Source: Oligoflexales bacterium
GTDB taxonomy: Bacteria; Bdellovibrionota_B; Oligoflexia; Oligoflexales; RGVZ01
Direction: 5' to 3'
Assembly (NCBI GenBank): GCA_947476525.1
Contig: CANJQY010000002.1
Coordinates: forward strand, 1-59,025
DNA length: 59,025 nucleotides
Position 1 is the first letter of the stretch, and each line of letters begins with the position of its first letter. Made by a program: the position numbers and the translations under genes. The notes beneath the pieces were generated by a model, which saw only the letters and a program-made list of their open reading frames with translations, had not been told where the DNA came from and searched no databases. Shown one piece after another: positions 23,438 to 38,852 of this stretch.

Positions 23438-23902
23438 TCACCAATCTACTCGCCAGACCACCGTATGGCTTGCAGTTACCATGGTGGCGCCAGTTTGTGG
23501 AAATTTCATTTTCCTCAGTAGCTCGTTTGCACACGCGGGCAGTGCTTTGGCGTTACCACCTCTTTCAACTTGCGACACCACACCAGAGGTTAGAATCACG
23601 GCTTCGAGCAGCATGGACCGAGGACTTGGCAACGTGACGTTTAGACATTCAAAGAGCCCGTCGCGGTGGGCTTGAAATTTAAATTCGCGCATAAAAGTCT
23701 GCTCATCAATGCCGTTAGGCTCTTTGAAATGCAACATTTTGCGGTCAATTTTTTTGGCTCGAACTGGCGGTATTACAAGTGTGGGTGGTAGCGTGGCTGA
23801 TGGCGCGGCTAGTGGCCGGCCACCTCCAAAAAATTCTTCTGGGCCGATCGGCGTCGCCCAAAGGAGCAAAAATAGGCCCACTATCAAAATCCAACGATTC
23901 AT
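23438..23902 (-). CDS. small exported hypothetical protein (operon gene 11)
   Basis: Signal peptide MNRWILIVGLFLLLWA. Lies 13 nt downstream of the preceding gene. No family recognised. Confidence 0.55.
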   Translation of the reverse strand: MNRWILIVGLFLLLWATPIGPEEFFGGGRPLAAPSATLPPTLVIPPVRAKKIDRKMLHFKEPNGIDEQTFMREFKFQAHRDGLFECLNVTLPSPRSMLLEAVILTSGVVSQVERGGNAKALPACANELLRKMKFPQTGATMVTASHTVVWRVDW

Positions 23903-23915
23903 CGGCGATGTCCCA

Positions 23916-25712
23916 TCATTCTAAATGCCACACACGGTCTGTTACCGAATTTGGCATTGCCAAGAACTCGCGACGGGCCAAAGTTACTGAATCTGCCCAG
24001 ATGTAAGGGTTCGTGAGTTTTGCAAATGGCCTAATGTTAACGGCACCCACGTGAGTCACGCCGCCACGAGCAGATTTTTCTGCCGTGGACCTTTGATCGT
24101 GGGCTGCACGTTCAAGGCTTGTAAGAAGGCTTACCAATGACTCTTGTGATTTTCCACTGTCGAGGACTTTGCGAATGATTTTCGTGAGCTGCAAAATAAC
24201 ATCCTCAACTTTGTCGTATTCGTCGTCTGACAGACCCTCTGCTCGAACGGCAATGTCATTTGCATAGTTGATAAACTCATTGGGCCGTCGTTCATGTAAT
24301 TTTTCGACTAATTTTGCATACACAAGACTTTTTCGGTGAGCTAACGCCTCGTAGACGGATAGTGTTTCAGGCGGTAGGCGGGCAATTGTCGAAGATTTGC
24401 TTTTAGCTAATAATTGATTTTCAATTGCAAGGAAGCCTTTAATATTCCCACGCAGGGCATGATCGATCAATAAGCCCCGGTAAATTCTCGGCCAATAGGC
24501 CACAGGCACGGCCCCTTGAATGGCACCGAGCATGGCCTCGTTATATTGATATTCACTTAAAAGTCGTTCTACGATGGTCAACGCCCCCTGGCGAGAAACC
24601 TCAGCGGCGTCTTCGGTGGCAAGAATTCTTCGTAGGAACTCGATAGTTTTGGCGTGGTCTCCAGCTTCATAGGACATAACAGCCCTTCGGTAAACGATTT
24701 GGTCGTGAAACGGCAGGTCAGTTAGCTGATCTAACTGCTCAAATAAAATCTCCCGTTCTTTAATTGGCCATTCATCAAAAGCAACAATCCCAAGCCACGA
24801 CGCAGCGTTGACGGCATCGGCCGTAGGTAAAATGACTTTGACGACACCCTCATCGCGGCCGCCGAGTGGTAATACTCCGGCGGGAATTAATTCTTGTTTG
24901 ACCATGGCACTCCATAAGTAACGCCTCTCGGGGTCTTCAAGCTTAGCCCAATCGCCGAGAGAAATATGATTGAACATGGTCAAGATACTGGTTGCAAGGT
25001 CGTCGTATTTTAGTTTTTGAGCCAGTTCCATAATTCTAATTTGGATAGGACGATCGTCCGTCAGACGATCTTCTGGGTGGATGGTAACCCAAGCCATGTA
25101 ACGTCTAAGGTAATCTAACTCGGCCTCGTCAGCAAATTTGCTATCTTTGTAAGTTGGGCGGCTGTAACGGCAGCCCCGATTTAGGAGAAGCTTTGTCTTC
25201 TTGAGATCTGTCAGGTTCGGGGTCTCAAAATCCGCTAACGTGGTTACTTGCACGCCTCGATCAGCGGCATCGTCGGCATCAAGCGGAACGGCAGGCGCTT
25301 GGGCAAAACGTTGATAGAATCTAGCACCGTAGGCTCGTACTAAAAGATCAAAACTGACAGGACCCACCGCTGGGCCAAAGGGACAAGCCCCAAACTTTAG
25401 GGCGGCCAATTTTTCATAGTAGGGTAATTTGTTGACATTGCGTTTTGTATGAATCGCCATCTGCGTCACTCGCCAGGCCGACTGGTATTTTTTTTTGAGC
25501 AAAAACCAACGAATGCTGTCTTCTAATTTGTCGTTCCATTCGGGGTCACTGGGTGTGATTTTATTGTAAAAACTACGAGCCCCATTCACATCACCAGAAT
25601 CATAGGTCTTTCTCGCAAGGTCCAAATTTCGGGCTCCAGCAAACGAACTAAATCCAATTAAGAGGGCCACGACTCCAGGTGAACACCACGAATTTTGCGC
25701 TTTTGACTTCAT
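23916..25712 (-). CDS. exported all-helical (TPR-like) hypothetical protein (operon gene 10)
   Basis: Start set at ATG 25712, giving an ATGA overlap with the upstream stop. Signal peptide MKSKAQNSWCSPGVVALLIGFSSFAGA. Helical repeat-like composition. Confidence 0.6.
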   Translation of the reverse strand: MKSKAQNSWCSPGVVALLIGFSSFAGARNLDLARKTYDSGDVNGARSFYNKITPSDPEWNDKLEDSIRWFLLKKKYQSAWRVTQMAIHTKRNVNKLPYYEKLAALKFGACPFGPAVGPVSFDLLVRAYGARFYQRFAQAPAVPLDADDAADRGVQVTTLADFETPNLTDLKKTKLLLNRGCRYSRPTYKDSKFADEAELDYLRRYMAWVTIHPEDRLTDDRPIQIRIMELAQKLKYDDLATSILTMFNHISLGDWAKLEDPERRYLWSAMVKQELIPAGVLPLGGRDEGVVKVILPTADAVNAASWLGIVAFDEWPIKEREILFEQLDQLTDLPFHDQIVYRRAVMSYEAGDHAKTIEFLRRILATEDAAEVSRQGALTIVERLLSEYQYNEAMLGAIQGAVPVAYWPRIYRGLLIDHALRGNIKGFLAIENQLLAKSKSSTIARLPPETLSVYEALAHRKSLVYAKLVEKLHERRPNEFINYANDIAVRAEGLSDDEYDKVEDVILQLTKIIRKVLDSGKSQESLVSLLTSLERAAHDQRSTAEKSARGGVTHVGAVNIRPFAKLTNPYIWADSVTLARREFLAMPNSVTDRVWHLE

Positions 25713-26497
25713 GGACGCCGTTTGTCTCCAAAAGCTACGACCCCACCAATTGAGGTCCCAGTCCAATGACCGAGAGCTGGCCCCATGTAAGATCTTGGAA
25801 TTTGGTAATTGGTCAAGAAAAAGAGACCAAAGCCCGAAGGTAAATAAATTTGGTAACGAAGCCCTAGATCAATAACCCAAGCCGAAACACCTATCGTTTG
25901 GCCTGCTACCCGAGCGCGATCCCCTTTTTTGGTAGGTATAAACTTGGACGACGGATGAACATAATGAACACCCGCTTCCAAACTAAAAACACTTTCGACG
26001 TCACTAATAATTGGCGATAAACGCGACGATGATTTGCCCTCAAGTAGGCTATAGCCAAACTGACCGTAGACCTCCCACCTTGTAGGTTGGGCTATCTGAC
26101 GGAACGGAGTTTTTTCAATCATCCTGCCGGCCGTATCAGAGTGGACGGATATGCGGCGCAGGCCAGTGCGAAACAGGAAACCTCCGCCAAGGGAAAAACC
26201 AACTCCTGCATGCCATCCATCCGAGGGAATGACGTTTCGTTCATTCACGCCATCTATGCCAAGTTCTAGCTCGTAGTTGCTATTTCTCCAGTCATATATT
26301 TTGGGAGCCTGACTCTCCATAATGACTTGGTCAAGCACACTTCCCTCGTCAAAAAGAACACCGTCTTCGATGATTGGTGGGGTCGGCCTTGAGGGAGTAA
26401 TGATCGGCTCTTTGGCGGCAAACAAAATGGTAGAATTCAGAAATAAAATACCTAGGTGTGCCATTTTTTTTGCTTGAAATATTTTTTCAGTAGCCAT
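25709..26497 (-). CDS. exported hypothetical protein, outer-membrane beta-barrel-like (operon gene 9)
   Basis: Signal peptide present. Alternating hydrophobic/polar strands (GVGFSLGGGFLFRTGL, VYGQFGYSLL, VIDLGLRYQIYL). Start is 26497, or alternatively 26464. Confidence 0.55.
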   Translation of the reverse strand: MATEKIFQAKKMAHLGILFLNSTILFAAKEPIITPSRPTPPIIEDGVLFDEGSVLDQVIMESQAPKIYDWRNSNYELELGIDGVNERNVIPSDGWHAGVGFSLGGGFLFRTGLRRISVHSDTAGRMIEKTPFRQIAQPTRWEVYGQFGYSLLEGKSSSRLSPIISDVESVFSLEAGVHYVHPSSKFIPTKKGDRARVAGQTIGVSAWVIDLGLRYQIYLPSGFGLFFLTNYQIPRSYMGPALGHWTGTSIGGVVAFGDKRRP

Positions 26498-28625
26498 CCA
26501 AAGCCTCACTACCAACTGAAGGATACTGAGGACTCACGCAACTAAAAAAATTATTGTCACTGTAATTGCCGCCCACCTGATAGACTCCGGCGTCATCAAA
26601 CCAGGGGTGATCACAATAGTTAGTGCAGACTTGAAGCAAGGATCCGAAGTCAATTGAGTCAGCCAACCACTTTGGGTCCCCCAAGAGTTGATAACCCGCA
26701 AAATCTCGACCTACAGGTATGAGGCTTACTACGTTGAGGGTCACCGGTGATTTGTACGTCACCTTACCGATGAATGGTAGCTCCCAAGCAACTCCAATTC
26801 GGTAGTCTGCAGCCCCTTGGCCGATACCCCAAAGACTTTCTGCCGTAACAATATTAATTCCATCCGTGGTCGCGTCTTGGGTCGAGCTGCGTAAACGTAA
26901 ACTATTTAGTAGTGAGGAATTGGCTGCTCCCCAACAAACGTGCACACGCTCATTTGCGGTGACAATGAGGTGTTCGTTATCAAAATAAGTGACCTGATGC
27001 TTTTTTTCGGTCTCGGTAAACGTACTTCCATTTTTCACCACGCTTGCAAACGATAAATCCGGCTTTTTGACAAGACCTCGGTCCGTGTATTTATCGACAT
27101 AATTTCGGTAGCTATTAAGAGTCGGGAAAGGGCCCATTGGGGTTACAAAATTTAGCAACGCACCACCAATTTTCACAGGTTCCGTTACAATGCAATTAGC
27201 ATCCACAGGAGAACTTAGACTAGATGATGGGTCTTGGGGCCTGATGCTAGGGCACCAGATCATAAATTTCTCTTGAACACTAGTTGGCCTAAAATCAAAT
27301 TGGCTGTCATAGACAAAACTACCCACGAGCCTCGGAGATATCAACGCCGCCTCTGAGGTTGAAATGACAGCAAGCTCTTCGGCAAGTATTTGATGAAAAT
27401 TACGAAATTCAGTCGACAGATTTTGGTGGAGAACGACCGTAAACATGAAGTCAGTCGCGCCGCTTGAGGCGGCCTTGGCGGTCGCCAATTTGGAGGTGAG
27501 TAATCCCGATAACGAGCTTCGAAACGAGGCGTCACCTCCAACTCTAAAGCATAGATCTTCTGGTGATTCCCCAAATCCGAGCATTTTTCGCTGATACTCA
27601 TAAAAAGTTTCATCCCTGGCCGTATCAGCACCAATAGCATCTGAACAATAGGCTAAAATGACTGGAATTTTCGTCGCAGCCGTCAACGGTGTGTCGTATT
27701 TATAGCTGCCAGTTTTAAATTTCGGATTACGACGGGCGAAGACCGTGTGTTTGGCCAAAACCAAACCATTTCTATCCAAGAAATCCACGTTAGCACAGGC
27801 TCCGTTGGTGCCATCTGTCGTTGGGAAATCTCCGGTCAGCCAAGAGCTTTTTCCATCAAAGGTTTGTGCGTTAGCTGAAGATAGTGACGCCGTACAAAAA
27901 TCAGCCGGAAATAGGTAATTATTTCGGCGAGATGTTTTAAGTGCTGCCATTACAGTGTTAGTAACGCTTGTGCTTTCGGGTGCCCGCACCTGAAATTTTC
28001 TGGTCATACCGTAGCGTCTAATATCTACCTTCGATGGAATGCCAAAATTATCGTCTACACGAATCTGGATGCGAGTGTTGCTTGAATCGTAAACTCCAAA
28101 AACCATGGCACTGAGATTGGTACCAAAATCGCGAATCGTAGCCGAAGTGACATGTTCGGCAGTGCCATCGGGGTGATACAGCATACGCAAAGCAACGCGC
28201 TGAACATTTTTATCAGAGGGCCAGGAAAAACTTCCACAATGCACACCTCTACTGCACTCAACCATCTTATGCTGATGAACTCCGGTCGACAAATCAAGGA
28301 ACTTCCAAGTTGCTTGTGCCGAGTTAAACGTCCCACTGCCATCATCAAAAGCGTAGAACCACTTGCTATTTTCTAAAACCTCGGGAATTTCTGTCAATTC
28401 AAAAAAAAGGTAGTCCACATTTTCGTCAGCAACGCGGTAGGCTCCGATTATGTCAAGGTGGGACGGAACTTGCACCAAGCCCGCCTTGCGGCACGATTGC
28501 ACCATTGCACTACCAAAACCAACGACAGCCACGATGGCGGCTGCTTGGGCTGCCCAACGACTAATGGATGGAATTAGTGCCACTAGCCCGGCTGTCGGAG
28601 GCTTTTGAATGCGCAACCAGTTCAT
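26487..28625 (-). CDS. large Cys-rich exported hypothetical protein (operon gene 8)
   Basis: 712-aa ORF with an N-terminal hydrophobic anchor or signal. Many Cys residues. The start shares one base with the upstream stop (TAATG). No family recognised. Confidence 0.6.
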   Translation of the reverse strand: MNWLRIQKPPTAGLVALIPSISRWAAQAAAIVAVVGFGSAMVQSCRKAGLVQVPSHLDIIGAYRVADENVDYLFFELTEIPEVLENSKWFYAFDDGSGTFNSAQATWKFLDLSTGVHQHKMVECSRGVHCGSFSWPSDKNVQRVALRMLYHPDGTAEHVTSATIRDFGTNLSAMVFGVYDSSNTRIQIRVDDNFGIPSKVDIRRYGMTRKFQVRAPESTSVTNTVMAALKTSRRNNYLFPADFCTASLSSANAQTFDGKSSWLTGDFPTTDGTNGACANVDFLDRNGLVLAKHTVFARRNPKFKTGSYKYDTPLTAATKIPVILAYCSDAIGADTARDETFYEYQRKMLGFGESPEDLCFRVGGDASFRSSLSGLLTSKLATAKAASSGATDFMFTVVLHQNLSTEFRNFHQILAEELAVISTSEAALISPRLVGSFVYDSQFDFRPTSVQEKFMIWCPSIRPQDPSSSLSSPVDANCIVTEPVKIGGALLNFVTPMGPFPTLNSYRNYVDKYTDRGLVKKPDLSFASVVKNGSTFTETEKKHQVTYFDNEHLIVTANERVHVCWGAANSSLLNSLRLRSSTQDATTDGINIVTAESLWGIGQGAADYRIGVAWELPFIGKVTYKSPVTLNVVSLIPVGRDFAGYQLLGDPKWLADSIDFGSLLQVCTNYCDHPWFDDAGVYQVGGNYSDNNFFSCVSPQYPSVGSEALDGY

Positions 28626-29380
28626 TATGGACGCACCTCTTGGGCAGTTTGAACAGCCCAGTTCGCCAATGTTAAGGCGTCTGATGATGCTGTCGCCGTT
28701 CTGGCTCTAGTTCCTGCATCTGTGGGGTCAACTGTATTTATGGCCGTAGCAGTTTTGACAATTTTTGAGTCCGTGGAAGCTTTCCAATGGGCAAAATGGC
28801 CCGTGGTTGGATTGCTTACACTAAAATAATGAAGACTAACAGCCGGTCTTCCACGTCCGCGAAGAGTTCGCCACGCAGCCCAATGGGGAGTTTCCACGAC
28901 GAGTGTAAACGTGCCGCCGACATCGGTGTCCCAAAATACTGCTTTGAGATGGACGATGGGTCGGTCTAATGGGTCATCCGGATATGATCTCACGGAGCCG
29001 GGATCAGAAGCCGCGGCGGCCGTTTCTACGGCAGTCAACGTCGTGCAGTCAGAAGTAGTGATGGCCCGAGGAACCACAGTTACGTTGTCCGCAACCATTT
29101 TAAGGGCCTCCGTCGCCGCAGCGATTCTGGTCGACCATTCAGTGATTCTAAACTGACTTGTGCCTGTCGCACCGAAACAGGACGAATCAGCGGCCGCAGA
29201 GTTAGATAAATTTATTGGCTCAAATACGACAATGTATAACGGTTTGGTCGCCTCGGGATCGGTTGGAATATTAGGCGTCGCTGCCGACGATCCATCACGG
29301 TCATCCCAACCGTCATAGCAAGACACGTTGATTTGTGTGATTAGAGACAACAAAAATATTTTAAGTAATGAAGAAGTCAA
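28625..29380 (-). CDS. exported hypothetical protein, possible lipoprotein (operon gene 7)
   Basis: N-terminus MTSSLLKIFLLSLITQINVSC, an atypical lipobox. T/A/S-rich. Confidence 0.55.
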   Translation of the reverse strand: MTSSLLKIFLLSLITQINVSCYDGWDDRDGSSAATPNIPTDPEATKPLYIVVFEPINLSNSAAADSSCFGATGTSQFRITEWSTRIAAATEALKMVADNVTVVPRAITTSDCTTLTAVETAAAASDPGSVRSYPDDPLDRPIVHLKAVFWDTDVGGTFTLVVETPHWAAWRTLRGRGRPAVSLHYFSVSNPTTGHFAHWKASTDSKIVKTATAINTVDPTDAGTRARTATASSDALTLANWAVQTAQEVRP

Positions 29381-29426
29381 AAGTATGCCTCGATGAAATT
29401 CTCTGGAATATTCTCTGTAATATTCT

Positions 29427-31082: not shown

Positions 31083-31098
31083 TTAAAAATTCTCCCTT

Positions 31099-31758
31099 TC
31101 AAGGCTGATCTACTTTGGATTCAAGTTTTTTAATTTGCTCGCCGACCTGAGTATTTGGCTCAATTTCTTGTGCCTTGCGGTAAGTTTCCAGTGCTCCGTC
31201 ACGTTCTCCAATTTTTAAAAGTAACGAACCCTTAGTACGCAGGGTCTCCACGTGATTGGGATATCGTCCCAAAATTTGCTCTGCGTACTGCAAGGCAATT
31301 GAGTAGTCACCAGATTTTAGAAATTTTCTGATCATCTCTTGTGTCTTCAAAATACTGACGGGAGACGCCTTAGCGTTCATAGAGTACCCGGATTTTAAAT
31401 AGGATTCTTCAAGAGTTTTGTCTGCTGGTGTCGGTGCGTAGGGAACCAAAGCAAGTCCAACTGGTGACTGCGACGACTTCTGATCGATTAAAATCTGCTG
31501 CCCACTCATCAAGATTGGAATGAAGACTTCGGTCTGCGCCGACCCGTCTGAGTAGACGACTCGCACTACGTCGCGAGAATAGATCTGAGGCGCATCCTTT
31601 TTTCCAAGCTCTCTCGGAGGCAACGGCTTGGTCACCGAGTCACTGATGACATAAGTCCAAAATTCGCGGCCAGATATACAACTTGAAAGTGCCACACTAA
31701 AGAAAAGATAACTCCACAATATTCGCGGTGGCAGACTATACACAATTTTACGATTCAA
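31099..31758 (-). CDS. TPR-repeat lipoprotein (operon gene 5)
   Basis: Lipobox VALSSC. C-terminal TPR-like YSIALQYAEQILGRYPNHVETLRTKGSLLLKIGERDGALETYRKAQEIEPN. Confidence 0.65.
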   Translation of the reverse strand: MNRKIVYSLPPRILWSYLFFSVALSSCISGREFWTYVISDSVTKPLPPRELGKKDAPQIYSRDVVRVVYSDGSAQTEVFIPILMSGQQILIDQKSSQSPVGLALVPYAPTPADKTLEESYLKSGYSMNAKASPVSILKTQEMIRKFLKSGDYSIALQYAEQILGRYPNHVETLRTKGSLLLKIGERDGALETYRKAQEIEPNTQVGEQIKKLESKVDQP

Positions 31759-31766
31759 CTCTCACC

Positions 31767-32732
31767 TCACAGCATAAAAGGGAAAAAAACAGGATTATAA
31801 AAACTTATGCCCAAGCTCGCTCCACCCTTGGAGCCAGCGTTAATAAACACACCGAATGTCGAAGAAACCGCCGCTTGAACGCCAACGGAAAAAGATAAGC
31901 TATCTTGGACGGGATCGGGGCTTAAGGCCGCCTGTAGCGGAAAAAAGAGCTGACCGGACGCCGTAATCCTGCGATTAAATGGCAGCATGTAGCGGTACGT
32001 CAGTCCAATAGCTAAAGTCGGATTGACTAGACTCAAGGTCACGCCTGTAATGTGTTGGTTTAAGCTTCCCCACTGTTCTAAAAATGACATGTGAAAGAGT
32101 CCCGCTGGATAAAAACCCATGTCTATAAAAATATAAGCCAGACTTTCCCCTCGTTCTCTCCGGTCTAGTTCTTTAATTAGGCCAAGAGGCGGCTTTGCCT
32201 GATTTAACGTGATGCGGCCATCAGCCAAGTAGTGAAATAAAATGGCTCCGTCACTAATGCGCAATATTTTGAGTTCCACGCCAGACGCAGTCTCGGTTGT
32301 AAACACCACTGATTTGACACCTTGATAACGGGGATCTGAGGTTAACGCTAACAGGTCGGCGGTGGAAAGGTCTCCGCTATCAATGGAAATGGTGTGTTGT
32401 TTTGCGACGTGAAGGCGCTGCATATTGCAGTCATGGCATTGGATTAGATCCCCTGAGGCGGTCCAATATTTTTTAAAGATGGCCCATACTGCAGGTGCAA
32501 AATCGCTTTGGGATTCTGTCCACAGATGCCTTGGTGTCGCTACGAGCATGGGCGACACACTCGCAGAAAAGGACTCATCATTTGTGATTTTGTTTTGAAT
32601 GGCGTCATCTAAAAGTACCAAATCACTATTTGTTTGTTCCAGCATCGCAAAGGCAACAGACGGCTGGACGCACCACAGACTAACGACAACGAGAATTTTG
32701 GTGGAAATGTTTTTTGACTGAAATTTTACCAT
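31767..32732 (-). CDS. exported hypothetical protein, beta-barrel-like C-terminal half (operon gene 4)
   Basis: Start set at ATG 32732 (ATGGTAA overlap with the upstream stop). Signal peptide present. Strand-like segments in the C-terminal half. Confidence 0.55.
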   Translation of the reverse strand: MVKFQSKNISTKILVVVSLWCVQPSVAFAMLEQTNSDLVLLDDAIQNKITNDESFSASVSPMLVATPRHLWTESQSDFAPAVWAIFKKYWTASGDLIQCHDCNMQRLHVAKQHTISIDSGDLSTADLLALTSDPRYQGVKSVVFTTETASGVELKILRISDGAILFHYLADGRITLNQAKPPLGLIKELDRRERGESLAYIFIDMGFYPAGLFHMSFLEQWGSLNQHITGVTLSLVNPTLAIGLTYRYMLPFNRRITASGQLFFPLQAALSPDPVQDSLSFSVGVQAAVSSTFGVFINAGSKGGASLGISFYNPVFFPFML

Positions 32733-33949
32733 TTCACCACCATCCCAAGTCCCCACGCTTGAAACGACGTGCCCAGTATATCGTAGCTGCCGAGAACCTC
32801 GCTGTTGCTTAGTGCCGGCACTTTTTCTAAAAATGAAAACAGACCAAACCTGTGTTTGGCGTGTAGTTCCAGTCCCACTCGGTATGCGATATAGGTCGCC
32901 CTAGGCTCGCGCCTATCCCCACGTATGCTCGCAATGTCTAGTTCCTCCAGCCCGAAAGGCAAGGCACCAGGACCTCGAAGTCTGGTGTAATGAAAGCCTG
33001 CCAAAAAATAGAGGTCTGGATTTGCGAGACTCGGTTCTTGCTTGTTAAGAAGTTTTGCCAAGTGCCCACCGACCGAGTAGCCACTCATTACTTTTTCGAC
33101 GCTGGTTGCCCCCACGGTAAATGCGACTCGGGTACTTCGCCTCGGCAAGACGACGCCTTCGACACTTTGTTCTACAAAGAGCAGTGGAGTCACGTTAGAT
33201 GCGCCGGTGTTTCCAGCATTTTCCATTTTGAAATTCGTAAACGAAATCCGTGTGATAAATTGCAGGAGGTCTTCTTTGCGAAGCATCGTATTTTGGATAT
33301 CGCGTGCCTCTTGCAACGTCACCAAATGTTGATCGTTTTGCAATGCCAGTCGAGAAGACATGGACGTGGCGTATGACTTGGCCCAGACAATCGGTTGGCC
33401 AGGTTCGGCGAATGAAAACAATTGGGCACGCAATATGAGAGATTTGCCTTCGGCCTCAAACGACAAGCTCAGTCCCGTTTTGGCACCGCCAGACGATGCT
33501 AGCTCCTTGAGGAGCTCTGGCTGGTCGATGCCGCGGCCGATATAGGTGCCGGCCTTAGTCGATTTAACCACCATTTTCATGCAGGCACTGCACCTGGCAA
33601 GGCTTACCTTTGTCGAACTAATTTTCAGCAATAGATCAATCAAGTGATTCTCAATGACAAGAGAAAATTGCTCGTCTAGTCCGATGGGCGAATTAATTTC
33701 CGCCAGTGAAACCAATTGCAGACTAGAAAATGGGGGATGCAGTTCCCAGTCGTGCACGAGTTCATCTACTAAATCTGTGCCCATCCACCGAATATCTAAG
33801 GTAGCGCCTTGCTCCTCTGCAAAAGAGGAGCCTACCGTGAACAGCGTTATTGCCATCGTCAGTCCAAGGCGGCCAAGAACCTTGACGCCCTGCGTCACAA
33901 AATAGTTCGCAGAATAGTTCACAAATTTATTGTTTCCGAAGTGAATCAC
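32726..33949 (-). CDS. exported hypothetical protein, outer-membrane beta-barrel-like (operon gene 3)
   Basis: GTG start overlapping the upstream TGA (GTGA). Signal peptide ...LFTVGSSFA. Ends ...GLGMVVKW, an aromatic C-terminus as in many OM barrels. Confidence 0.55.
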   Translation of the reverse strand: MIHFGNNKFVNYSANYFVTQGVKVLGRLGLTMAITLFTVGSSFAEEQGATLDIRWMGTDLVDELVHDWELHPPFSSLQLVSLAEINSPIGLDEQFSLVIENHLIDLLLKISSTKVSLARCSACMKMVVKSTKAGTYIGRGIDQPELLKELASSGGAKTGLSLSFEAEGKSLILRAQLFSFAEPGQPIVWAKSYATSMSSRLALQNDQHLVTLQEARDIQNTMLRKEDLLQFITRISFTNFKMENAGNTGASNVTPLLFVEQSVEGVVLPRRSTRVAFTVGATSVEKVMSGYSVGGHLAKLLNKQEPSLANPDLYFLAGFHYTRLRGPGALPFGLEELDIASIRGDRREPRATYIAYRVGLELHAKHRFGLFSFLEKVPALSNSEVLGSYDILGTSFQAWGLGMVVKW

Positions 33950-34542
33950 AAGTCAAGCCACTCCTGACTATCATTTGCTTTATTTGCGAGACTCGACAGT
34001 GAGACTCCAATAAATTGTTTTGCATCGTCAACGCGGCGCACGACAACCTTCAAATTGGAATGGGGCTTGGAACTTTGAATTCGCAACACTCTAACTTTGG
34101 GAGCATACTGCACCAACGCAGTTTCAAAAACGGCTCGCACGTGTTTGCGCACCGCAAGGACATCCGTCAAGACTTCAATATTTAAACTGAGTGCCTCGCT
34201 TGCAGAATTTATTTTTTGTCTTTGATCATTGATTTGAGAAATTTTAAGTGCCACTTCCGTGGCGCGCAGTCCGGCATTTTCAGCCACGAATGTATAAAAG
34301 GAATTTCGGTCCCCGTACTCGAAAATTGTGGAGTCACACACATAAAAACCCCGGAGATTAAAAGTCGACGCTTTGCCGCGGCTTCCCAAATTTGTCGCCG
34401 CAAGTTCTTCGGCGTTTGCGGGTCGACAATTTGCGGGGACGTCGTCTTGGAGTCCCTGTTCATACCTTGATTCGGGGCTGAGGAAGGTCCCGTCTGATCC
34501 AAGACTGAGCAACGCCAAAATAGTTGCGTATATTTCAATCAA
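33946..34542 (-). CDS. hypothetical protein (operon gene 2)
   Basis: 198-aa ORF with a TTG start overlapping the upstream TGA (TTGA). Weak N-terminal hydrophobic segment. Confidence 0.45.
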   Translation of the reverse strand: MIEIYATILALLSLGSDGTFLSPESRYEQGLQDDVPANCRPANAEELAATNLGSRGKASTFNLRGFYVCDSTIFEYGDRNSFYTFVAENAGLRATEVALKISQINDQRQKINSASEALSLNIEVLTDVLAVRKHVRAVFETALVQYAPKVRVLRIQSSKPHSNLKVVVRRVDDAKQFIGVSLSSLANKANDSQEWLDL

Positions 34543-35207
34543 AACACACCCCCTTGAAGGGCTGAGGCGGTGTAGACTTTATTTTCAATAAATTTTGCGA
34601 AATTTTCTGACTGCTGACGACGATACGCTGAGCGAGAAACTGGCTTCCCAATTTCTGAGAGCATCAAGAATAGAGCTCCAATACCGAAATATTTTCTCTG
34701 GTGCACCATTAGTGGCCACGATCGGCTTTGATTTCCCCTTACTGCGGTTACAGTGAGTTTTGCCGATGAATCTACTTCTGCCAAACAAGGAAATAGGAAC
34801 CCGCTGGCAATCATGGGGACCAGCGACCAGCCACACATTCCAAAACCGGATTTGATTTCTTGGTAGGTCACGAGAATTTCCGGGGCGGTTATTTTTTTTG
34901 TAGCAGACTGGATTGGTGATTCTGTGTCCGAGTCTTCCTTTTCAGGCATATCCTCGACTACGGCCCCCATGTTCGCGACAATTTTTTTAATGAAAACACA
35001 GCCCTCTCCTTCCGAGATATTGCCGCCATCAGCATCACTGCAAATCACTTTTATGGGAATACCGTCTAGGCTAGTTGCGTGAATAGCTAAATCAACGGGC
35101 TCTACCCATTGGCCATGGGGGTAAACATAGCTAATGCATGACGCCAACAATGGTGTGACGGCAACCATTAAAAAAAGGAAAAAAAGTGAAAAAATCTTGC
35201 TGCGCAT
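34539..35207 (-). CDS. lipoprotein, hypothetical (operon gene 1)
   Basis: MRSKIFSLFFLFLMVAVTPLLASC is a signal peptide plus canonical lipobox. Confidence 0.6.
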   Translation of the reverse strand: MRSKIFSLFFLFLMVAVTPLLASCISYVYPHGQWVEPVDLAIHATSLDGIPIKVICSDADGGNISEGEGCVFIKKIVANMGAVVEDMPEKEDSDTESPIQSATKKITAPEILVTYQEIKSGFGMCGWSLVPMIASGFLFPCLAEVDSSAKLTVTAVRGNQSRSWPLMVHQRKYFGIGALFLMLSEIGKPVSRSAYRRQQSENFAKFIENKVYTASALQGGVF

Positions 35208-35422
35208 GAATACTTTCCGACCATGGGCCGCGAATTACCTGCCGGAAAACGCAGCATTTCTAAAAATTACCAATGTTGCTTCGAAATGAGTGACGAATTA
35301 AACTAGCAGCGCACACGAAAAAGATCTATCCTAATTTTTCCATGAAAAATAACTTATCTAAGCAAAATAAATTATCTAACAGGCATGGCTACAGCCATTA
35401 CGAAAACGGAAGAGAGTAAAAA

Positions 35423-36145
35423 ATGTTTACACCGATCATTGGGGTTATAACGCTCTGCGCAGTGTTTTTCGTGGCCGTAGCCGAAAGGTCCAACGCTCAA
35501 CTCGACTTCATCGATTATCACGCAGCGTTTGTCGTGTTGGGTGGAGTTGCCGGTGCTCTTTGTTTATCCATGGAACGCAGCTCGTTGTTGATGCTCTTAC
35601 AATCCGTTCGAGATCTTTTGCCCGGCTTTGGCAAAAGGAAATACGACTCCCAGCACGTTCGTCAGGAAATCGCCGAGCTTCGCGATGCTTGGCGAGGGGG
35701 CCAGCGCGCAAAGGTCTTAGATCTTGCCGATCACAGTAAATCTGCAGAAATTCGGATCGCTGCCGACGCATTGTTTAAACGCAAAAAGGGGGCTGCACTA
35801 TCCGAGGCCTTTGCTGAACTACGAACCGTCTACATAACCAAATACCAACCAGTGGTCGAGGGTTGGGATTTGGTGGGACGTTTAGCGCCATCTTTTGGGA
35901 TGGTAGGAACGGTCACTGGGATGATCCAGCTTTTCAAAAACATGGCCGAAAATTCTGGCAACATCGGTGGAGCCATGGGAATGGCCCTACTTGCGACCTT
36001 GTACGGCATTACTTTTGGCGCCTCAGTGGGTTCACCAATGGCGACTCGAGTGATGAACCGCATGAACGAGTATCTTGCATCCATGGATTTACTAGAGCAA
36101 ACAGTGGCGGCCCTTTCCGAAGCTGACGAGCAACAAAAATCTTAG
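35423..36145 (+). CDS. motA: MotA/PomA-family proton-channel (stator) protein
   Basis: 4-TM layout with a cytoplasmic loop. APSFGMVGTVTGMIQLF...IGGAMGMALLATLYGITFG aligns with the PomA/MotA TM3-TM4 block. RBS GGAAGAGAG. Confidence 0.8.
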   Translation: MFTPIIGVITLCAVFFVAVAERSNAQLDFIDYHAAFVVLGGVAGALCLSMERSSLLMLLQSVRDLLPGFGKRKYDSQHVRQEIAELRDAWRGGQRAKVLDLADHSKSAEIRIAADALFKRKKGAALSEAFAELRTVYITKYQPVVEGWDLVGRLAPSFGMVGTVTGMIQLFKNMAENSGNIGGAMGMALLATLYGITFGASVGSPMATRVMNRMNEYLASMDLLEQTVAALSEADEQQKS

Positions 36146-36166
36146 CTTGCCAAAGGAATTTAGCTT

Positions 36167-36808
36167 ATGAAGCATTGGCGTCCAAGTAGATCTCGCGCAA
36201 ACAACGAAGGTTGGCTTACCTCGTACGCCGATTTGATTACAAATTTGCTAATATTTTTCGTCCTTATTATTTCCGCGTCTCAGATGCAAAATGGCAAAAT
36301 GGAACGCATTATTGAATCCATGAATAACAAAAAGTCATCCCCAAGCATGACTCTGGCGAAAGCTAAAAAAGAACTTGAAAAGGTCCTCAAAGAGCAAAAT
36401 CTAGAAAAACAGGTGTCCGTTGACTTGACTGACAACGGCCTAGAGCTGGCCTTTCAGTCCGGCGTTATGTTTGCGTCGGGTAGCGCTCAAATTTTTGAGG
36501 CCATGGACGCTCCACTAGCGATCGTGCTCGACGCGATGGCGAGGTACCGAGAAAAGTACCATTTTGCCGTTGAAGGCCACACCGATGAAACACCTATTCG
36601 TTCAGACGCTTACCGAAGCAATTGGGAGTTGTCGAGTGCCAGGGCACTTGTTGTAAGAGACCGCCTTGAGTCGTCCGGCGCACCGAAGACAAAGATTCGT
36701 GTAGAGGCCTACGCCGACACGCATCCGTTAAAGCCAGAGAAGCTGCAAAACTTGACGCGCGATGAGGTGCTTTCACTGCACCGCCGTGTTGTCATTAGAC
36801 TCTATTAA
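36167..36808 (+). CDS. motB: MotB-family stator protein with an OmpA-like peptidoglycan-binding domain
   Basis: EGWLTSYADLITNLLIFFVLI (conserved Asp plus TM) and C-terminal GHTDETP...NWELSSARALVVRDRL. Confidence 0.8.
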   Translation: MKHWRPSRSRANNEGWLTSYADLITNLLIFFVLIISASQMQNGKMERIIESMNNKKSSPSMTLAKAKKELEKVLKEQNLEKQVSVDLTDNGLELAFQSGVMFASGSAQIFEAMDAPLAIVLDAMARYREKYHFAVEGHTDETPIRSDAYRSNWELSSARALVVRDRLESSGAPKTKIRVEAYADTHPLKPEKLQNLTRDEVLSLHRRVVIRLY

Positions 36809-36813
36809 AGCCC

Positions 36814-37560
36814 ATGGTAGGACTTAGAGAGTTTTCTCGTCTAATTTTGTTAATGGCATCACTTCAGATGGCAACTGGCTGTGCGACCGTTTTTAATTCA
36901 AAGATTACGTCCATGAAAATTGTCTCGAAACCACCTGGAGCGACCGTTATTGTGGGGGACGGTCTCGCTACGTGCAAGACACCTTGTGTGGTGAAACTAA
37001 AAACTGAAGAAAGCGTACCCGTAACTGCAACGTTAGAAGGATTTGCAAAGTATCAAGGGATCGTTACGAGAAGAATTGCGGCCTCTTTTTGGGTCAATTT
37101 TTCGGCAATCTGGTTTGCGCCGATTGGAATGTCCATCGACTATCTGACTAAAAATATGTGGACTTGGCGAAATTTGTCTATCAAGCTGATTCCAATAGGC
37201 GAAGAGGAAGAAACCCCGCCAGAAGCGGCACCTGAAGAGAAGATTGTAGATGCGGTGGTGGCACCACCCGCTCCACCTAGGCCGCCAATTTCAAGTGATT
37301 TACCAACGACCGTAGTACCAATAAAAAAATCTGGCACAGATCAGGCATCCACTAGCATTCGTTCAAAATTTCCGAAGGTCCTTGTTGAGCGCCGAGTAGA
37401 GTGGTTTTTTGGATCCCAAAATTCCGAAGAGCTGGGCAAACATGTCGAGTGCGTTTACCAGATCATGGAAAATCACCCTGGTGGCTATGATTTCCCCCTC
37501 GACGACGCCGTAAAATTGGCCAATGGACAAAAAAAGGAACCCTGTCAAAACAACCAGTAG
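36814..37560 (+). CDS. PEGA-domain lipoprotein
   Basis: Signal ending QMATGC. KIVSKPPGATVIVGDGLATCKTPCVV matches the PEGA motif region. Pro-rich linker. Lies 5 nt downstream of motB. Confidence 0.6.
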   Translation: MVGLREFSRLILLMASLQMATGCATVFNSKITSMKIVSKPPGATVIVGDGLATCKTPCVVKLKTEESVPVTATLEGFAKYQGIVTRRIAASFWVNFSAIWFAPIGMSIDYLTKNMWTWRNLSIKLIPIGEEEETPPEAAPEEKIVDAVVAPPAPPRPPISSDLPTTVVPIKKSGTDQASTSIRSKFPKVLVERRVEWFFGSQNSEELGKHVECVYQIMENHPGGYDFPLDDAVKLANGQKKEPCQNNQ

Positions 37561-38627: not shown

Positions 38628-38763
38628 TTTACAATCCCAATTATTTTCATATAACAATTAAAAACAGTGCAACAAAGTGTGCGACGTTACCGTTACAAAT
38701 GGACCATGGCAACATAGATGTTGCATAGATGTTGCAAACATGCTGAAATTATAAACTAAATAG

Positions 38764-38837: not shown

Positions 38838-38852
38838 AAAGGAGGATAGTAA

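What the first reader, a model, noticed from the sequence alone, without database searches (positions are those of the whole stretch)
23438..37560. Orphan MotA/MotB stator divergently paired with an 11-gene, translationally coupled operon of exported proteins: candidate new pmf-driven trans-envelope machine
Seen in the sequence: eleven same-strand ORFs run from 35207 down to 23438. Their junctions are either overlaps (TTGA 34539-34542, GTGA 33946-33949, ATGGTAA 32726-32732, TAATG at 28625, ATGA 25709-25712) or gaps of 8-46 nt, so this reads as one operon. By eye the products are as follows. Three or four are lipoproteins (LASC, LSSC, a possible VSC), one of them TPR. Three have signal peptides and beta-strand-like alternation and look like outer-membrane barrels; one of these ends GMVVKW. 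One is a 712-aa Cys-rich exported protein, one is a ~600-aa helical exported protein, and two are small proteins, one with a clear signal peptide. One is a bitopic inner-membrane protein with a FliG-like cytoplasmic domain. I can name no family for most of them. A motA-motB-PEGA lipoprotein operon sits 215 bp away on the other strand. No flagellar rod, hook or export genes, secretins or secretion ATPases occur anywhere in the window. Established knowledge: MotA/TolQ/ExbB-type channels power flagella, TonB, Tol-Pal, and the Myxococcus/Bdellovibrio Agl-Glt gliding and Nfs spore-coat machines. The Glt/Nfs sets likewise combine three OM barrels, a lipoprotein, TPR proteins and bitopic IM proteins. 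Inference: this is an analogous but distinct envelope-spanning apparatus. It differs from Agl-Glt in using a MotB with an OmpA-type peptidoglycan anchor and a membrane-tethered FliG-like partner.
Basis: partly seen in the sequence, partly recalled or inferred. Interest (0 to 1): 0.85.

Follow-up and report, generated by a model that had tools for sequence, protein, structure and literature searches.

The report
Flagellar-type motor in non-flagellar envelope machine
A conserved 13-14-gene cluster pairs a flagellum-type MotA/MotB ion motor with a membrane-anchored FliG/FliF-like protein and a set of uncharacterised lipoproteins and outer-membrane proteins; it occurs in about 100 species, including cultured myxobacteria of genera known as non-flagellated gliders, so it looks like an undescribed ion-driven machine spanning the cell envelope.

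Summary
Eleven tightly packed same-strand genes (23438-35207, minus strand) lie divergent from motA-motB-PEGA (35423-37560).

The link to motAB is not chance.
- Seven distinct full-length Oligoflexales loci keep the same layout at 23-66% protein identity.
- About 80 loci, mostly Myxococcota (Archangium, Hyalangium), plus Silvanigrellaceae, carry one colinear operon: G1-G2-G3-G4-G5-motA-motB-G6-G8-G9-G10-G11.
- In 70 of 82 of those loci the motB stop overlaps the G6 start by 1 nt.

The stator has flagellar-type hallmarks: MotB plug, invariant Asp, an OmpA-like domain, and a roughly 100-residue MotA loop.

G6 has a signal peptide, a small periplasmic alpha-beta-beta-alpha-beta domain with four invariant Cys, one TM helix, and a cytoplasmic domain matching full-length FliG by profile and by fold. 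G3 is an 8-stranded outer-membrane barrel with a TolB-N/LpoB-like periplasmic domain. G1, G5 (TPR), G7 and G8 (712 aa, 12 invariant Cys) are lipoproteins. Nine of the eleven products match no curated family.

I found no homology to Agl-Glt/Nfs, no flagellar export or axial genes nearby, and no paper describing the cluster.

Best reading: an undescribed pmf-driven trans-envelope machine in which flagellar-type stators act on a FliF/FliG-like partner. Its output is unknown.

The parts
35423..36145 (+). motA: 240-aa PomA-like stator A subunit with four TM helices and a roughly 100-residue TM2-TM3 cytoplasmic loop
   Evidence: Pfam MotA_ExbB E=4e-16. The best NCBIfam match is PomA, covering residues 5-233. 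P156 and P205 align to E. coli MotA P173 and P222. Across 84 orthologues W90, P156 and P205 are invariant, R95 is R/K in 84/84 and D103 is D/E in 80/84.
36167..36808 (+). motB: 213-aa stator B subunit with plug, TM helix carrying Asp22, and an OmpA-like peptidoglycan-binding domain
   Evidence: Pfam MotB_plug E=2e-14 and OmpA E=7e-14. D22 in the YADL motif is invariant in 86/86 orthologues.
36814..37560 (+). PEGA-domain lipoprotein (lipobox MATGC), an accessory component
   Evidence: Pfam PEGA E=1e-5. Found in 4 of 7 related Oligoflexales loci and absent from the colinear form of the cluster.
35208..35422 (.). 215-bp divergent intergenic region between G1 and motA, presumed to hold promoters for both directions
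   Evidence: Sequence read. No convincing sigma-70 or sigma-54 consensus was found, so the promoter role is inferred only.
34539..35207 (-). G1: 222-aa lipoprotein (LLASC, Cys24) with a variable acidic linker and conserved hydrophobic C-terminal segments (CGW...FPC)
   Evidence: Alignments show C24, C56 and C70 invariant. Found in 71 loci. No hit in Pfam, NCBIfam or PDB.
33946..34542 (-). G2: 198-aa protein with an N-terminal hydrophobic signal or anchor and two conserved Cys
   Evidence: Alignment. The positional equivalent in the colinear form is homologous (hhalign probability 92.8%, E=4e-7). No family hit.
32726..33949 (-). G3: outer-membrane protein with a periplasmic TolB-N/LpoB-like alpha/beta domain (CxxC motif) and a C-terminal 8-stranded beta-barrel ending in W
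   Evidence: AF2 model pLDDT 78. Foldseek hits: Ail, OmpX, OmpA-TM and NspA (target-normalised TM-score 0.5-0.6, E 1e-6 to 1e-4), TolB (E 2e-7) and LpoB. 23 homologues. No sequence family.
31767..32732 (-). G4: 321-aa exported protein with an N-terminal CxxC domain weakly similar to that of G3 and a beta-rich C-terminal half (probable outer-membrane barrel, not verified)
   Evidence: Alignment. hhalign of G3 against G4 N-domains gives E=6e-4. Beta-type hydrophobic periodicity is at least as strong as in the G3 barrel. No family or PDB hit.
31099..31758 (-). G5: 219-aa TPR lipoprotein (ALSSC), the best conserved non-stator product
   Evidence: Several Pfam TPR families with E about 1e-5 to 1e-6. 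51-66% identity among Oligoflexales loci. Lipobox conserved.
29427..31082 (-). G6: 551-aa bitopic inner-membrane protein, the proposed rotor or track partner of MotA
   Evidence: 15 close homologues. AF2 model pLDDT 75. Homologous over its full length to the 608-aa protein encoded next to motB in the colinear form (hhalign probability 99.4%, E=7e-21).
30678..30998 (-). G6 periplasmic domain (aa 29-135): alpha-beta-beta-alpha-beta fold, resembling a ring-building motif, with four invariant Cys (C50, C55, C60, C98)
   Evidence: Secondary-structure order. Foldseek hits to PrgK (2y9j_Y, E=0.014) and the FliF S-ring/RBM3 region (8z5v, 8z4g, 6sd1; E 0.015-0.05), although OsmC-fold hits score similarly. 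The four Cys are invariant in 90/90 sequences.
30498..30572 (-). G6 transmembrane helix (about aa 171-195), followed by basic residues (RYRHKIK)
   Evidence: Long helix at 160-205 in the model. The hydrophobic stretch and P170/W174 are conserved.
29430..30428 (-). G6 cytoplasmic all-helical domain (aa 219-551) resembling full-length FliG
   Evidence: The family profile hits only T. maritima FliG in PDB below E=0.001 (3ajc 7e-5, 1lkv 8e-4, 4fhr 9e-4). Pfam FliG_C matches 9/15 members and MgtE_N 8/15. The top 13 Foldseek hits are all FliG, with 303-345 aligned columns on full-length FliG chains such as 3hjl and the Salmonella C-ring.
28625..29380 (-). G7: 251-aa lipoprotein with the conserved motif C-Y-[ED]-G-W; found only in the Oligoflexales form
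   Evidence: Lipobox and motif conserved in 12 orthologues. Absent from the colinear-form loci. No family hit.
26487..28625 (-). G8: 712-aa lipoprotein (MVQSC, Cys45) with 11 further invariant Cys; candidate output or surface component
   Evidence: Alignments. In one search the invariant Cys are C45, C124, C130, C277, C327, C359, C458, C478, C564, C667, C671 and C696 across 47 sequences from both forms. No Pfam, NCBIfam or PDB hit, even with the deep profile.
25709..26515 (-). G9: about 250-265-aa exported beta-rich protein (probable outer-membrane barrel, not verified); start codon uncertain
   Evidence: Alignment. Strongest beta-type periodicity of all products. Found in 81 loci. No family hit.
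23916..25712 (-). G10: about 570-600-aa exported helical-repeat protein, weakly TPR-like
   Evidence: Helical periodicity. Weak PDB profile hit to the TPR subunit of TFIIIC, E=0.01. Found in 79 loci.
23438..23902 (-). G11: 154-aa protein with an N-terminal hydrophobic anchor, a Pro-rich linker and a C-terminal domain with two invariant Cys (laid out like TonB/TolA)
   Evidence: Alignments show F, Q, C, G and C invariant across both forms. The colinear form adds a basic cytoplasmic tail. The AgmX/PglI-domain hit (E=0.028) was seen in 1 of 7 Oligoflexales members and in none of the further orthologues tested.

Best explanation
The cluster encodes one undescribed, ion-driven trans-envelope machine built around a flagellar-type rotor/stator pair, with no flagellum attached.

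Proposed mechanism:
- MotA5B2-type stator units are anchored to peptidoglycan through the OmpA-like domain of MotB and gated by its plug. They conduct ions through the invariant MotB Asp22.
- The cytoplasmic loop of MotA pushes on the FliG-like cytoplasmic domain of G6.
- G6 is a single-pass inner-membrane protein whose small disulphide-bonded periplasmic domain resembles the ring-building motifs of FliF and SctJ. It most likely oligomerises into a ring or track, so it would act as a fused MS-ring/FliG-type rotor.
- Movement of G6 is passed through the periplasm by the TPR lipoprotein G5, the helical-repeat protein G10, the TonB-like-layout protein G11 and G2. It reaches an outer-membrane module made of the G3 barrel with its periplasmic TolB-N/LpoB-like domain, the probable barrels G4 and G9, and lipoproteins G1, G7 and the large Cys-rich G8.

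What is shown and what is inferred:
- Shown: gene linkage, domain and fold assignments, and conservation of catalytic stator residues.
- Inferred: the MotA-G6 contact, ring formation, rotation, and the output. Surface movement or adhesion through G8 is my leading guess for the output, and envelope remodelling the second.
For: Linkage:
- Seven Oligoflexales loci at 23-66% identity keep motAB divergent from all 11 genes, while the flanking genes differ.
- Relatives of the colinear-form G6 occur in 117 GTDB species genomes, mostly Myxococcota. The 80 loci fetched show the order G1-G2-G3-G4-G5-motA-motB-G6-G8-G9-G10-G11 on one strand.
- A G6 start codon overlaps the motB stop by 1 nt in 70 of 82 loci.

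Stator:
- MotB_plug plus OmpA domains, and a PomA-like MotA.
- MotB D22 is invariant in 86/86 sequences. MotA P156 and P205 are invariant and align to E. coli P173 and P222. A basic residue at 95 and an acidic residue at 103 in the loop are conserved, with the same spacing as E. coli R90/E98.
- Plug, OmpA-type domain and an expanded cytoplasmic domain are the features reported as specific to flagellar stators (PMC12505986).

G6:
- The profile hits only FliG in PDB below E=0.001 (E=7e-5).
- Pfam FliG_C matches 9/15 members.
- The top 13 Foldseek hits are FliG, covering whole chains, followed by PrgK and FliF ring domains.
- A related group of longer proteins carries FliG_M and FliG_C above Pfam thresholds.

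Outer membrane: G3 is a barrel with a periplasmic domain. Lipoboxes are conserved in G1, G5, G7 and G8.

Hosts: carriers include cultured Archangium and Hyalangium. Myxobacteria are known as non-flagellated gliders (established knowledge). No flagellar family appears in any flank listed.
Against: - There are no experimental data. Co-transcription, complex formation, pmf dependence and localisation are all untested.
- The ring-building-motif assignment is weak: E 0.014-0.1, high rmsd, and OsmC-fold hits of similar score.
- Charged residues of the putative torque helix (R501, E504, K507) are conserved within the Oligoflexales form but not in the colinear form.
- hhalign of the family against the single E. 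coli FliG sequence is not significant (E=0.12), and against FliF it is also not significant (E=0.16).
- The equivalence of MotA R95/D103 with E. coli R90/E98 rests on spacing alone. hhalign aligned only TM3-TM4 with E. coli MotA.
- G4 and G9 are not structurally verified.
- No FliM/FliN-like protein, rod-like protein or bearing was identified, so how a rotating ring would couple to outer-membrane proteins through peptidoglycan is unexplained.
- I did not check whole genomes for flagellar genes.
Confidence: 0.6

Rival explanations
1. Non-rotary force transducer, working like Tol-Pal or Ton. MotAB energises a conformational change that is passed to the outer membrane by the TonB/TolA-like-layout protein G11 and the TPR proteins. 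G6 would be a static scaffold or regulator that recruits and gates the stators rather than a rotor. The machine would serve envelope integrity, peptidoglycan/outer-membrane coordination or lipoprotein handling rather than motility.
For: - The periplasmic domain of G3 resembles the TolB N-terminal domain and LpoB, and G5 is a TPR lipoprotein like CpoB, LpoA and YbgF.
- G11 has a TM anchor, a Pro-rich linker and a globular C-domain.
- No adhesin or enzyme domain was recognised in any product.
- Torque-helix charges in G6 are not conserved between the two forms.
Against: - The stator is MotAB/PomAB-like, with plug and OmpA domain, not TolQR/ExbBD-like.
- G11 does not match TonB, TolA or AgmX C-domains.
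- The gene translationally coupled to motB is the FliG-like G6, not G11.
- No TolB propeller or Pal was found.
Confidence: 0.22
2. A divergent paralogue of the Agl-Glt gliding or Nfs spore-coat machinery of Myxococcota and Bdellovibrionota. The components would be homologous to GltA-K/NfsA-H but too diverged to detect.
For: - The same two phyla carry it.
- The parts list is similar: three beta-rich outer-membrane proteins, lipoproteins, TPR proteins, bitopic inner-membrane proteins and a Cys-rich lipoprotein reminiscent of CglB (PMC9946355).
- One weak AgmX/PglI C-domain hit in G11, E=0.028.
Against: - The AgmX/PglI hit appears in 1 of 7 Oligoflexales members and in none of the further orthologues tested.
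- No NCBIfam or Pfam hit links any product to a Glt or TonB family.
- The motor is MotAB with plug and OmpA domain, not the TolQR-type AglRQS.
- The bitopic partner has a FliG-like cytoplasmic domain and N-out topology, unlike the TolA-like GltG/J.
- Archangium is expected to have the canonical Agl-Glt as well (knowledge, not tested here).
Confidence: 0.07
3. Part of a true flagellum, or a decaying remnant of one. The stator, a FliF-FliG fusion and periplasmic scaffold proteins (like the H/T rings or basal disks) would belong to, or be left over from, a flagellar motor encoded elsewhere.
For: - Flagellar-type stator features and FliG/FliF-like folds.
- TPR and lipoprotein scaffolds exist in the Vibrio and Campylobacter motors (knowledge).
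- Many Bdellovibrionota are flagellated (knowledge).
Against: - The cluster is present in many Myxococcota, including cultured Archangium and Hyalangium, a phylum known as non-flagellated (knowledge).
- No export-gate, rod, hook, FliM/N or flagellin family appears within 10 kb of the locus in any flank listed or in the 59-kb window.
- All 12 core genes are intact, keep their order and conserve catalytic residues across two phyla, which argues for selection and not decay.
Confidence: 0.06

Closest known systems
Bacterial flagellar motor core (MotAB/PomAB stator, FliG, FliF MS-ring)
   Same: - MotA has a long cytoplasmic loop and the two conserved prolines.
- MotB has a plug, the channel Asp and an OmpA-like peptidoglycan anchor.
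- The partner protein has a cytoplasmic domain matching full-length FliG by profile and fold.
- That partner's periplasmic domain resembles FliF/SctJ ring-building motifs.
   Different: - The FliG-like and FliF-like parts are one single-pass polypeptide with only one small periplasmic domain.
- No FliM/FliN, type III export gate, rod, hook, filament or L/P-ring genes are in the cluster, its flanks or the window.
- Carriers include myxobacteria, which are known as non-flagellated.
- The partners are instead outer-membrane barrels and lipoproteins of unknown families.
Agl-Glt gliding machinery and Nfs spore-coat machinery (Myxococcus, Bdellovibrio)
   Same: - It occurs in the same phyla.
- A pmf-driven MotA/TolQ-family motor is linked to an envelope-spanning set of bitopic inner-membrane proteins, TPR proteins, a lipoprotein group and three beta-rich outer-membrane proteins.
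- A Cys-rich lipoprotein (G8) could play a role like that of CglB (PMC9946355).
   Different: - No detectable sequence homology for any component.
- The motor is MotAB with plug and OmpA domain rather than AglRQS (TolQR-like, no peptidoglycan anchor).
- The motor partner is FliG-like rather than the TolA/TonB-like GltG/J.
- In most species all genes sit in one operon.
Tol-Pal and TonB-ExbBD systems
   Same: - Energy from an inner-membrane motor of the MotA/ExbB/TolQ family is used at the outer membrane.
- G3 has a TolB-N/LpoB-like periplasmic domain and G5 is a TPR lipoprotein.
- G11 has a TM anchor, Pro-rich linker and C-domain, laid out like TonB/TolA.
   Different: - The stator is of the flagellar type.
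- There is no TolB beta-propeller, Pal, TonB_C or TolA_C match.
- The gene coupled to the motor is FliG-like.
GldLM/PorLM motor of the type IX secretion and gliding system; SiiAB; ZorAB
   Same: All are non-flagellar uses of motors of the MotA/ExbB/TolQ family to power processes at or beyond the outer membrane (listed in PMC12204202).
   Different: None of them uses a FliG-like partner or a MotB with plug in this context. None of the T9SS, T1SS or Zorya component families was hit.

Membership tests
Flagellar-type stator MotAB/PomAB ('FIT' class of PMC12505986) | B subunit with a plug next to the TM helix and a conserved channel Asp | tested here: met
   Pfam MotB_plug E=2e-14. D22 invariant in 86/86 sequences.
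Flagellar-type stator MotAB/PomAB ('FIT' class of PMC12505986) | B subunit with an OmpA-like peptidoglycan-binding domain | tested here: met
   Pfam OmpA E=7e-14. Conserved D140, N152 and R159.
Flagellar-type stator MotAB/PomAB ('FIT' class of PMC12505986) | A subunit with four TM helices, an expanded cytoplasmic torque-generating domain (at least four helices) and conserved TM3/TM4 prolines | tested here: inconclusive
   The loop of about 100 residues and the PomA-like full-length match fit. P156 and P205 align to E. coli P173 and P222. The helix count and the 'square fold' were not modelled.
Flagellar-type stator MotAB/PomAB ('FIT' class of PMC12505986) | Works in a flagellar motor (flagellar genes present in the genome or neighbourhood) | tested here: not met
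   No flagellar family in the window or in any flank listed. Carriers include Archangium and Hyalangium. Whole genomes were not scanned.
FliG (flagellar rotor/switch protein) | FliG N, M and C armadillo-like helical domains | tested here: met
   PDB profile hits are FliG only, E=7e-5. Foldseek gives 303-345 aligned columns on full-length FliG chains. Pfam FliG_C matches 9/15 members, mostly below the curated threshold.
FliG (flagellar rotor/switch protein) | Soluble protein of about 330 aa that binds the FliF C-terminus and FliM | tested here: not met
   G6 is a 551-aa secreted-N-terminus, single-TM protein. No FliM/FliN family is in the cluster.
FliG (flagellar rotor/switch protein) | Conserved charged residues on the torque helix that pair with MotA R90/E98 | tested here: inconclusive
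   R501 aligns with the torque-helix Arg of T. maritima and E. coli FliG. It is S, T or A in the colinear form, and the acidic pair is not aligned.
FliF / SctJ / SctD ring-building-motif proteins | Periplasmic alpha-beta-beta-alpha-beta domain that oligomerises into rings | tested here: inconclusive
   The secondary-structure order matches. Foldseek hits PrgK at E=0.014 and FliF at E 0.015-0.1 with high rmsd, and OsmC hits are similar. hhalign against E. coli FliF is not significant. Oligomerisation is not testable here.
Agl-Glt / Nfs machinery | TolQR-type AglRQS motor without a peptidoglycan anchor | tested here: not met
   The motor here is MotAB with plug and OmpA domain. The TolQ model scores only E=0.023, against PomA at 5e-18.
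Agl-Glt / Nfs machinery | GltG/GltJ-type bitopic proteins with the AgmX/PglI (TonB/TolA-like) C-terminal domain | tested here: not met
   NF033768 hit only window G11, at E=0.028 and 14.6 bits against a cut-off of 40. It was 1 of 7 Oligoflexales members, and none of the further orthologues tested matched.
Agl-Glt / Nfs machinery | Sequence homology of the outer-membrane and periplasmic parts to GltA/B/H/K/C/D/E | not testable with these tools
   No Glt sequences or profiles were available. Indirectly, no Pfam or NCBIfam family was shared.
Tol-Pal system | TolQ-TolR-TolA, TolB beta-propeller and Pal | tested here: not met
   Only the TolB N-terminal-domain-like fold in G3. No TolB propeller, Pal, TolA or TolQR match.

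The most novel reading that the evidence does not exclude
This is a genuinely new kind of bacterial nanomachine: a flagellum-independent rotary motor. A ring of a natural FliF/FliG-like fusion protein would be spun by flagellar-type MotAB stators, and the rotation would be used at the outer membrane, for example to move or expose the Cys-rich lipoprotein G8 for surface motility, adhesion or predation. It would be either a sister lineage of the flagellar rotor-stator core that never acquired a type III export apparatus, or an ancient exaptation of that core. Either way it would provide a minimal natural rotor in culturable bacteria of genera known as non-flagellated.
Probability: 0.35. Interest if true: 0.95.

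Novelty: new variant of a known kind. Interest (0 to 1): 0.85.

Why it matters
Plug, OmpA-type anchor and an expanded torque-generating domain are currently described as specialisations for flagellar rotation (PMC12505986). FliG is known only as the flagellar rotor and switch protein.

Finding both in a conserved 12-gene operon with outer-membrane proteins, in myxobacteria of genera known as non-flagellated and in Oligoflexia, would mean the flagellar rotor-stator pair has a second, unrecognised use.

That would matter in three ways.
- It would add a new member to the short list of ion-driven envelope machines: flagellum, Ton, Tol, Agl-Glt, T9SS, Zorya.
- It would give a simple fused FliF/FliG-like rotor for mechanistic work.
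- It would make the question of how the flagellar motor core arose, before or apart from type III export, open to phylogenetic and experimental tests in cultured Archangium and Hyalangium.

Nine of the eleven products are families with no assigned fold or function, so they are targets in their own right.

Tried and rejected
- Pfam and NCBIfam on all products gave only TPR (G5), the stator domains and PEGA.
- Scanning all orthologues of G3, G4 and G9 against Pfam found nothing.
- PDB profile searches for G3, G4, G8 (shallow and 47-sequence deep profiles), G1, G10 and G11 found nothing significant, apart from a weak TPR-like hit for G10.
- The AgmX/PglI lead for G11 was not reproduced in orthologues. 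It is rejected as evidence of Glt homology.
- Tests for paralogy among G3, G4 and G9 and among all 11 families showed only a weak similarity between the G3 and G4 N-domains, E=6e-4.
- A single-protein search of GTDB genomes with G6 found nothing. Alignment-based searches were needed.
- Promoter and terminator scans gave counts equal to shuffled sequence. I saw no sigma-54 consensus in the divergent region.
- A profile search with the deep G8 alignment returned only close relatives without domains.
- hhalign of the G6 family against single E. coli FliG and FliF sequences was not significant. hhalign against E. coli MotA aligned only TM3-TM4.
- I considered whether the FliG signal is just a generic MgtE_N-like helical repeat. 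I rejected this because the PDB profile search returned FliG but no MgtE, and the fold matches cover whole FliG chains.
- I considered a recently transferred island. Base composition does not differ from the flanks.
- Five literature searches found no description of this cluster.

Full report
**1. Observation**

The window carries eleven minus-strand ORFs from 35207 down to 23438. I call them G1 to G11:
- G1 34539-35207
- G2 33946-34542
- G3 32726-33949
- G4 31767-32732
- G5 31099-31758
- G6 29427-31082
- G7 28625-29380
- G8 26487-28625
- G9 25709-26515
- G10 23916-25712
- G11 23438-23902

Junctions are overlaps of 1-7 nt or gaps of 8-46 nt. The G4 start at 32732 is fixed by orthologues that all begin 'MV'. 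Independent gene calls on public copies of this contig agree.

motA (35423-36145), motB (36167-36808) and a PEGA lipoprotein (36814-37560) lie 215 bp away on the other strand. The rest of the window holds housekeeping and signalling genes and no flagellar, secretin or secretion-ATPase family among the genes scanned. Base composition of the cluster does not differ from its flanks.

**2. Is the linkage real?**

The window is an uncultured-organism metagenome contig. G6 has only 15 relatives by word-indexed search.

Alignment-guided scans found seven distinct full-length loci, in Oligoflexales MAGs (Bdellovibrionota) and one unbinned metagenome contig. In these, all 11 genes plus motAB keep the same order and orientation at 23-66% protein identity. 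The flanking genes, including the sigma-54 activator and histidine kinase next to the window's cluster, are not shared. The PEGA gene is present in 4 of 7 loci.

Distant G3 and G6 relatives led to a second form of the cluster. There motA and motB sit inside a single colinear operon: G1-G2-G3-G4-G5-motA-motB-G6-G8-G9-G10-G11.

A scan of one genome per GTDB species found 117 species with this form of G6. The 80 loci fetched are mostly Myxococcota, including cultured Archangium violaceum, A. minus, A. lansingense and Hyalangium versicolor. There are also Polyangia, Bradymonadia and Silvanigrellaceae MAGs.

Iterated HMM searches showed the same order in every locus not cut by a contig end; 47 loci show the complete order. 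The apparent inversions come from sorting overlapping stop-to-stop ORFs. The G2 equivalent is homologous (hhalign 92.8%, E=4e-7). G11 shares invariant F, Q, C, G and C positions across both forms. G7 and PEGA are specific to the Oligoflexales form.

In 70 of 82 same-strand loci a G6 start codon overlaps the motB stop by exactly 1 nt.

**3. The stator**

- MotB has a MotB_plug domain and an OmpA domain.
- Its channel Asp (D22, YADL motif) is invariant in 86 of 86 orthologues.
- MotA is PomA-like over its whole length, with a loop of about 100 residues between TM2 and TM3.
- P156 and P205 are invariant and align to E. coli MotA P173 and P222.
- In the loop, W90 is invariant, position 95 is R/K in 84 of 84 sequences, and position 103 is D/E in 80 of 84.
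- That spacing of eight residues equals that of E. coli R90/E98, the residues that contact FliG (PMC12505986; PMC7564593 abstract). The equivalence is my inference, because hhalign did not align the loop with the E. coli protein.

Plug plus linker, an OmpA-type anchor and an expanded cytoplasmic domain are the traits that a 2025 survey describes as unique to flagellar stators and absent from non-flagellar relatives such as TolQR, ExbBD and AglRS.

**4. G6, the key partner**

The family alignment and an AlphaFold2 model (pLDDT 75) give this layout:
- a signal peptide;
- a periplasmic domain (aa 29-135) with alpha-beta-beta-alpha-beta order and four Cys invariant in 90 of 90 sequences;
- a Pro-rich linker;
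- one TM helix followed by basic residues;
- an all-helical cytoplasmic domain of about 330 residues.

Evidence that the cytoplasmic domain is FliG-like:
- A profile of the family hits only T. maritima FliG in the whole PDB below E=0.001 (E=7e-5 to 9e-4). The alignment runs colinearly through the C-terminal domain, including the MFxF hinge and the torque helix.
- Pfam FliG_C matches 9 of 15 members and MgtE_N 8 of 15.
- The first 13 Foldseek hits are FliG, including full-length A. aeolicus FliG and Salmonella C-ring FliG, with 303-345 aligned columns.

The next Foldseek hits are the ring proteins PrgK and FliF (S-ring/RBM3) at E 0.014-0.1. The rmsd is high, and OsmC-fold proteins score similarly. 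I therefore treat the ring-building-motif reading as suggestive only.

An hhalign of the family against E. coli FliF gives, as its best but non-significant match (E=0.16), the FliF C-terminal FliG-binding helix aligned to the first cytoplasmic helix of G6. This is a lead, not evidence.

The G6 protein of the colinear form is homologous over its full length (hhalign 99.4%, E=7e-21).

An exhaustive profile search found 223 clusters at 50% identity with E up to 0.001. They include a third group of 720-856-aa proteins with two periplasmic Cys-pair domains, a TM helix, and FliG_M plus FliG_C above Pfam thresholds. G6 therefore belongs to a wider set of membrane-anchored FliG-like proteins.

**5. 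The other products**

- G3 (AF2 pLDDT 78) has a C-terminal 8-stranded barrel resembling Ail, OmpX, OmpA-TM and NspA (target-normalised TM-score 0.5-0.6). Its N-terminal periplasmic domain resembles the TolB N-terminal domain and LpoB.
- G4 has a weakly similar N-domain with the same CxxC motif (E=6e-4).
- The C-terminal half of G4, and G9, show beta-type hydrophobic periodicity at least as strong as the verified G3 barrel. G6 and G10 are helical by the same measure.
- G1, G5 (TPR), G7 and G8 have conserved lipoboxes.
- G8 keeps 12 invariant Cys across both forms, yet matches nothing in Pfam, NCBIfam or PDB, even with a 47-sequence profile.
- G10 is a helical-repeat protein with a weak TPR-like hit.
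- G11 has a membrane anchor, a Pro-rich linker and a C-terminal domain with one Cys pair. In the colinear form it also has a basic cytoplasmic tail. That layout resembles TonB/TolA, but there is no sequence match.

**6. Comparison with known systems**

The parts list resembles the Agl-Glt/Nfs machines: three outer-membrane barrels, lipoproteins, TPR proteins, bitopic inner-membrane proteins and a Cys-rich lipoprotein adhesin (PMC9946355). Membership fails on every feature I could test:
- The motor is MotAB with plug and OmpA domain, not TolQR-like.
- The bitopic partner is FliG-like, not TolA-like.
- The single AgmX/PglI hit (E=0.028) is not reproduced in orthologues.

Direct comparison with Glt sequences was not possible with the tools at hand.

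Membership in the flagellum also fails. No export, axial or switch (FliM/N) genes are in the cluster, its flanks or the window. Carriers include myxobacteria, a phylum known as non-flagellated (established knowledge, not tested on whole genomes here).

Public annotation of the Archangium minus genes (F0U60_10235 to F0U60_10275) reads 'hypothetical protein', 'lipoprotein' and 'OmpA family protein'. For G6, UniProt gives an automatic 'FliG C-terminal domain-containing protein'. Literature searches found no description of the system.

**7. Mechanism and confidence**

I commit to the following model. MotAB stator units, anchored to peptidoglycan, use ion flow through Asp22 to drive the MotA loop against the FliG-like domain of G6. 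G6 probably forms a ring or track through its periplasmic domain. Its movement is passed by periplasmic TPR and helical proteins and lipoproteins to an outer-membrane module (G3, G4, G9 and G8).

Confidence by step:
- Functional coupling of motAB with the operon: high, about 0.85.
- A direct MotA-G6 interaction: moderate, about 0.6.
- True rotation of a G6 ring: lower, about 0.35-0.4.
- The output (surface motility or adhesion, or envelope maintenance): unknown.

The main rival is a non-rotary, Tol/Ton-like force transducer in which G6 only scaffolds or gates the stators (0.22). A divergent Glt paralogue (0.07) and a part or relic of a flagellum (0.06) are less likely.

**8. Verdict**

The finding is real and conserved, and as far as I can tell undescribed. 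I rate it a new variant of a known kind, namely envelope machines driven by MotA/ExbB/TolQ-family stators. There is a substantial chance that it is a categorically new flagellum-independent rotary machine. Interest is high. It places flagellar-specific stator features and FliG outside the flagellum, it is testable in cultured Archangium and Hyalangium, and it bears on the origin of the flagellar motor core.

Noticed in passing
L157 7863-10340 (Oligoflexus tunisiensis Shr3); also L124-L169, L026 2036-4255: A separate family of 720-856-aa proteins with a signal peptide, two periplasmic Cys-pair domains like the G6 N-domain, a TM helix, and FliG_M plus FliG_C above Pfam thresholds. It occurs in 46 Oligoflexia species genomes, in housekeeping contexts without motAB. 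It occurs in the same MAGs that carry the cluster (for example JBFWNG01 and CAZLMG01).
   Followed up: partly
window 43276-45618: A 780-aa protein combining an adenylate/guanylate cyclase catalytic domain with a C-terminal PilZ domain, an unusual fusion of cyclic-nucleotide synthesis with a c-di-GMP receptor domain.
   Followed up: no
window 19306-23314: A sigma-54-dependent response regulator and a hybrid histidine kinase sit directly downstream of G11, on the opposite strand. They are not conserved next to the cluster in any other locus, so they may be a lineage-specific regulator or simply neighbours.
   Followed up: partly
L019 3305-5635: In one related locus about 2.3 kb is inserted between motA and G1, where the other Oligoflexales loci have a short divergent intergenic region of about 60-230 bp.
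   Followed up: no
L010, L058, L059, L069, L081 and others: Several MAG contigs carrying the cluster are labelled Polynucleobacter, Enterobacterales/Enterobacteriaceae, Rhodobacterales or Bifidobacterium breve. Their gene content matches Oligoflexales or Myxococcota, so these are probably binning or labelling errors.
   Followed up: no
window 30338-30401 (G6 aa 228-249): The best, statistically non-significant (E=0.16), hhalign match between the G6 family and E. coli FliF is the FliF C-terminal helix that binds FliG. It aligns to the first cytoplasmic helix of G6.
   Followed up: partly
window 37617-39947: Two minus-strand ORFs beside the PEGA gene: a 346-aa product with a weak SdiA-regulated, beta-propeller-like match, and a 364-aa product with no family. 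Neither is conserved next to the cluster elsewhere.
   Followed up: no
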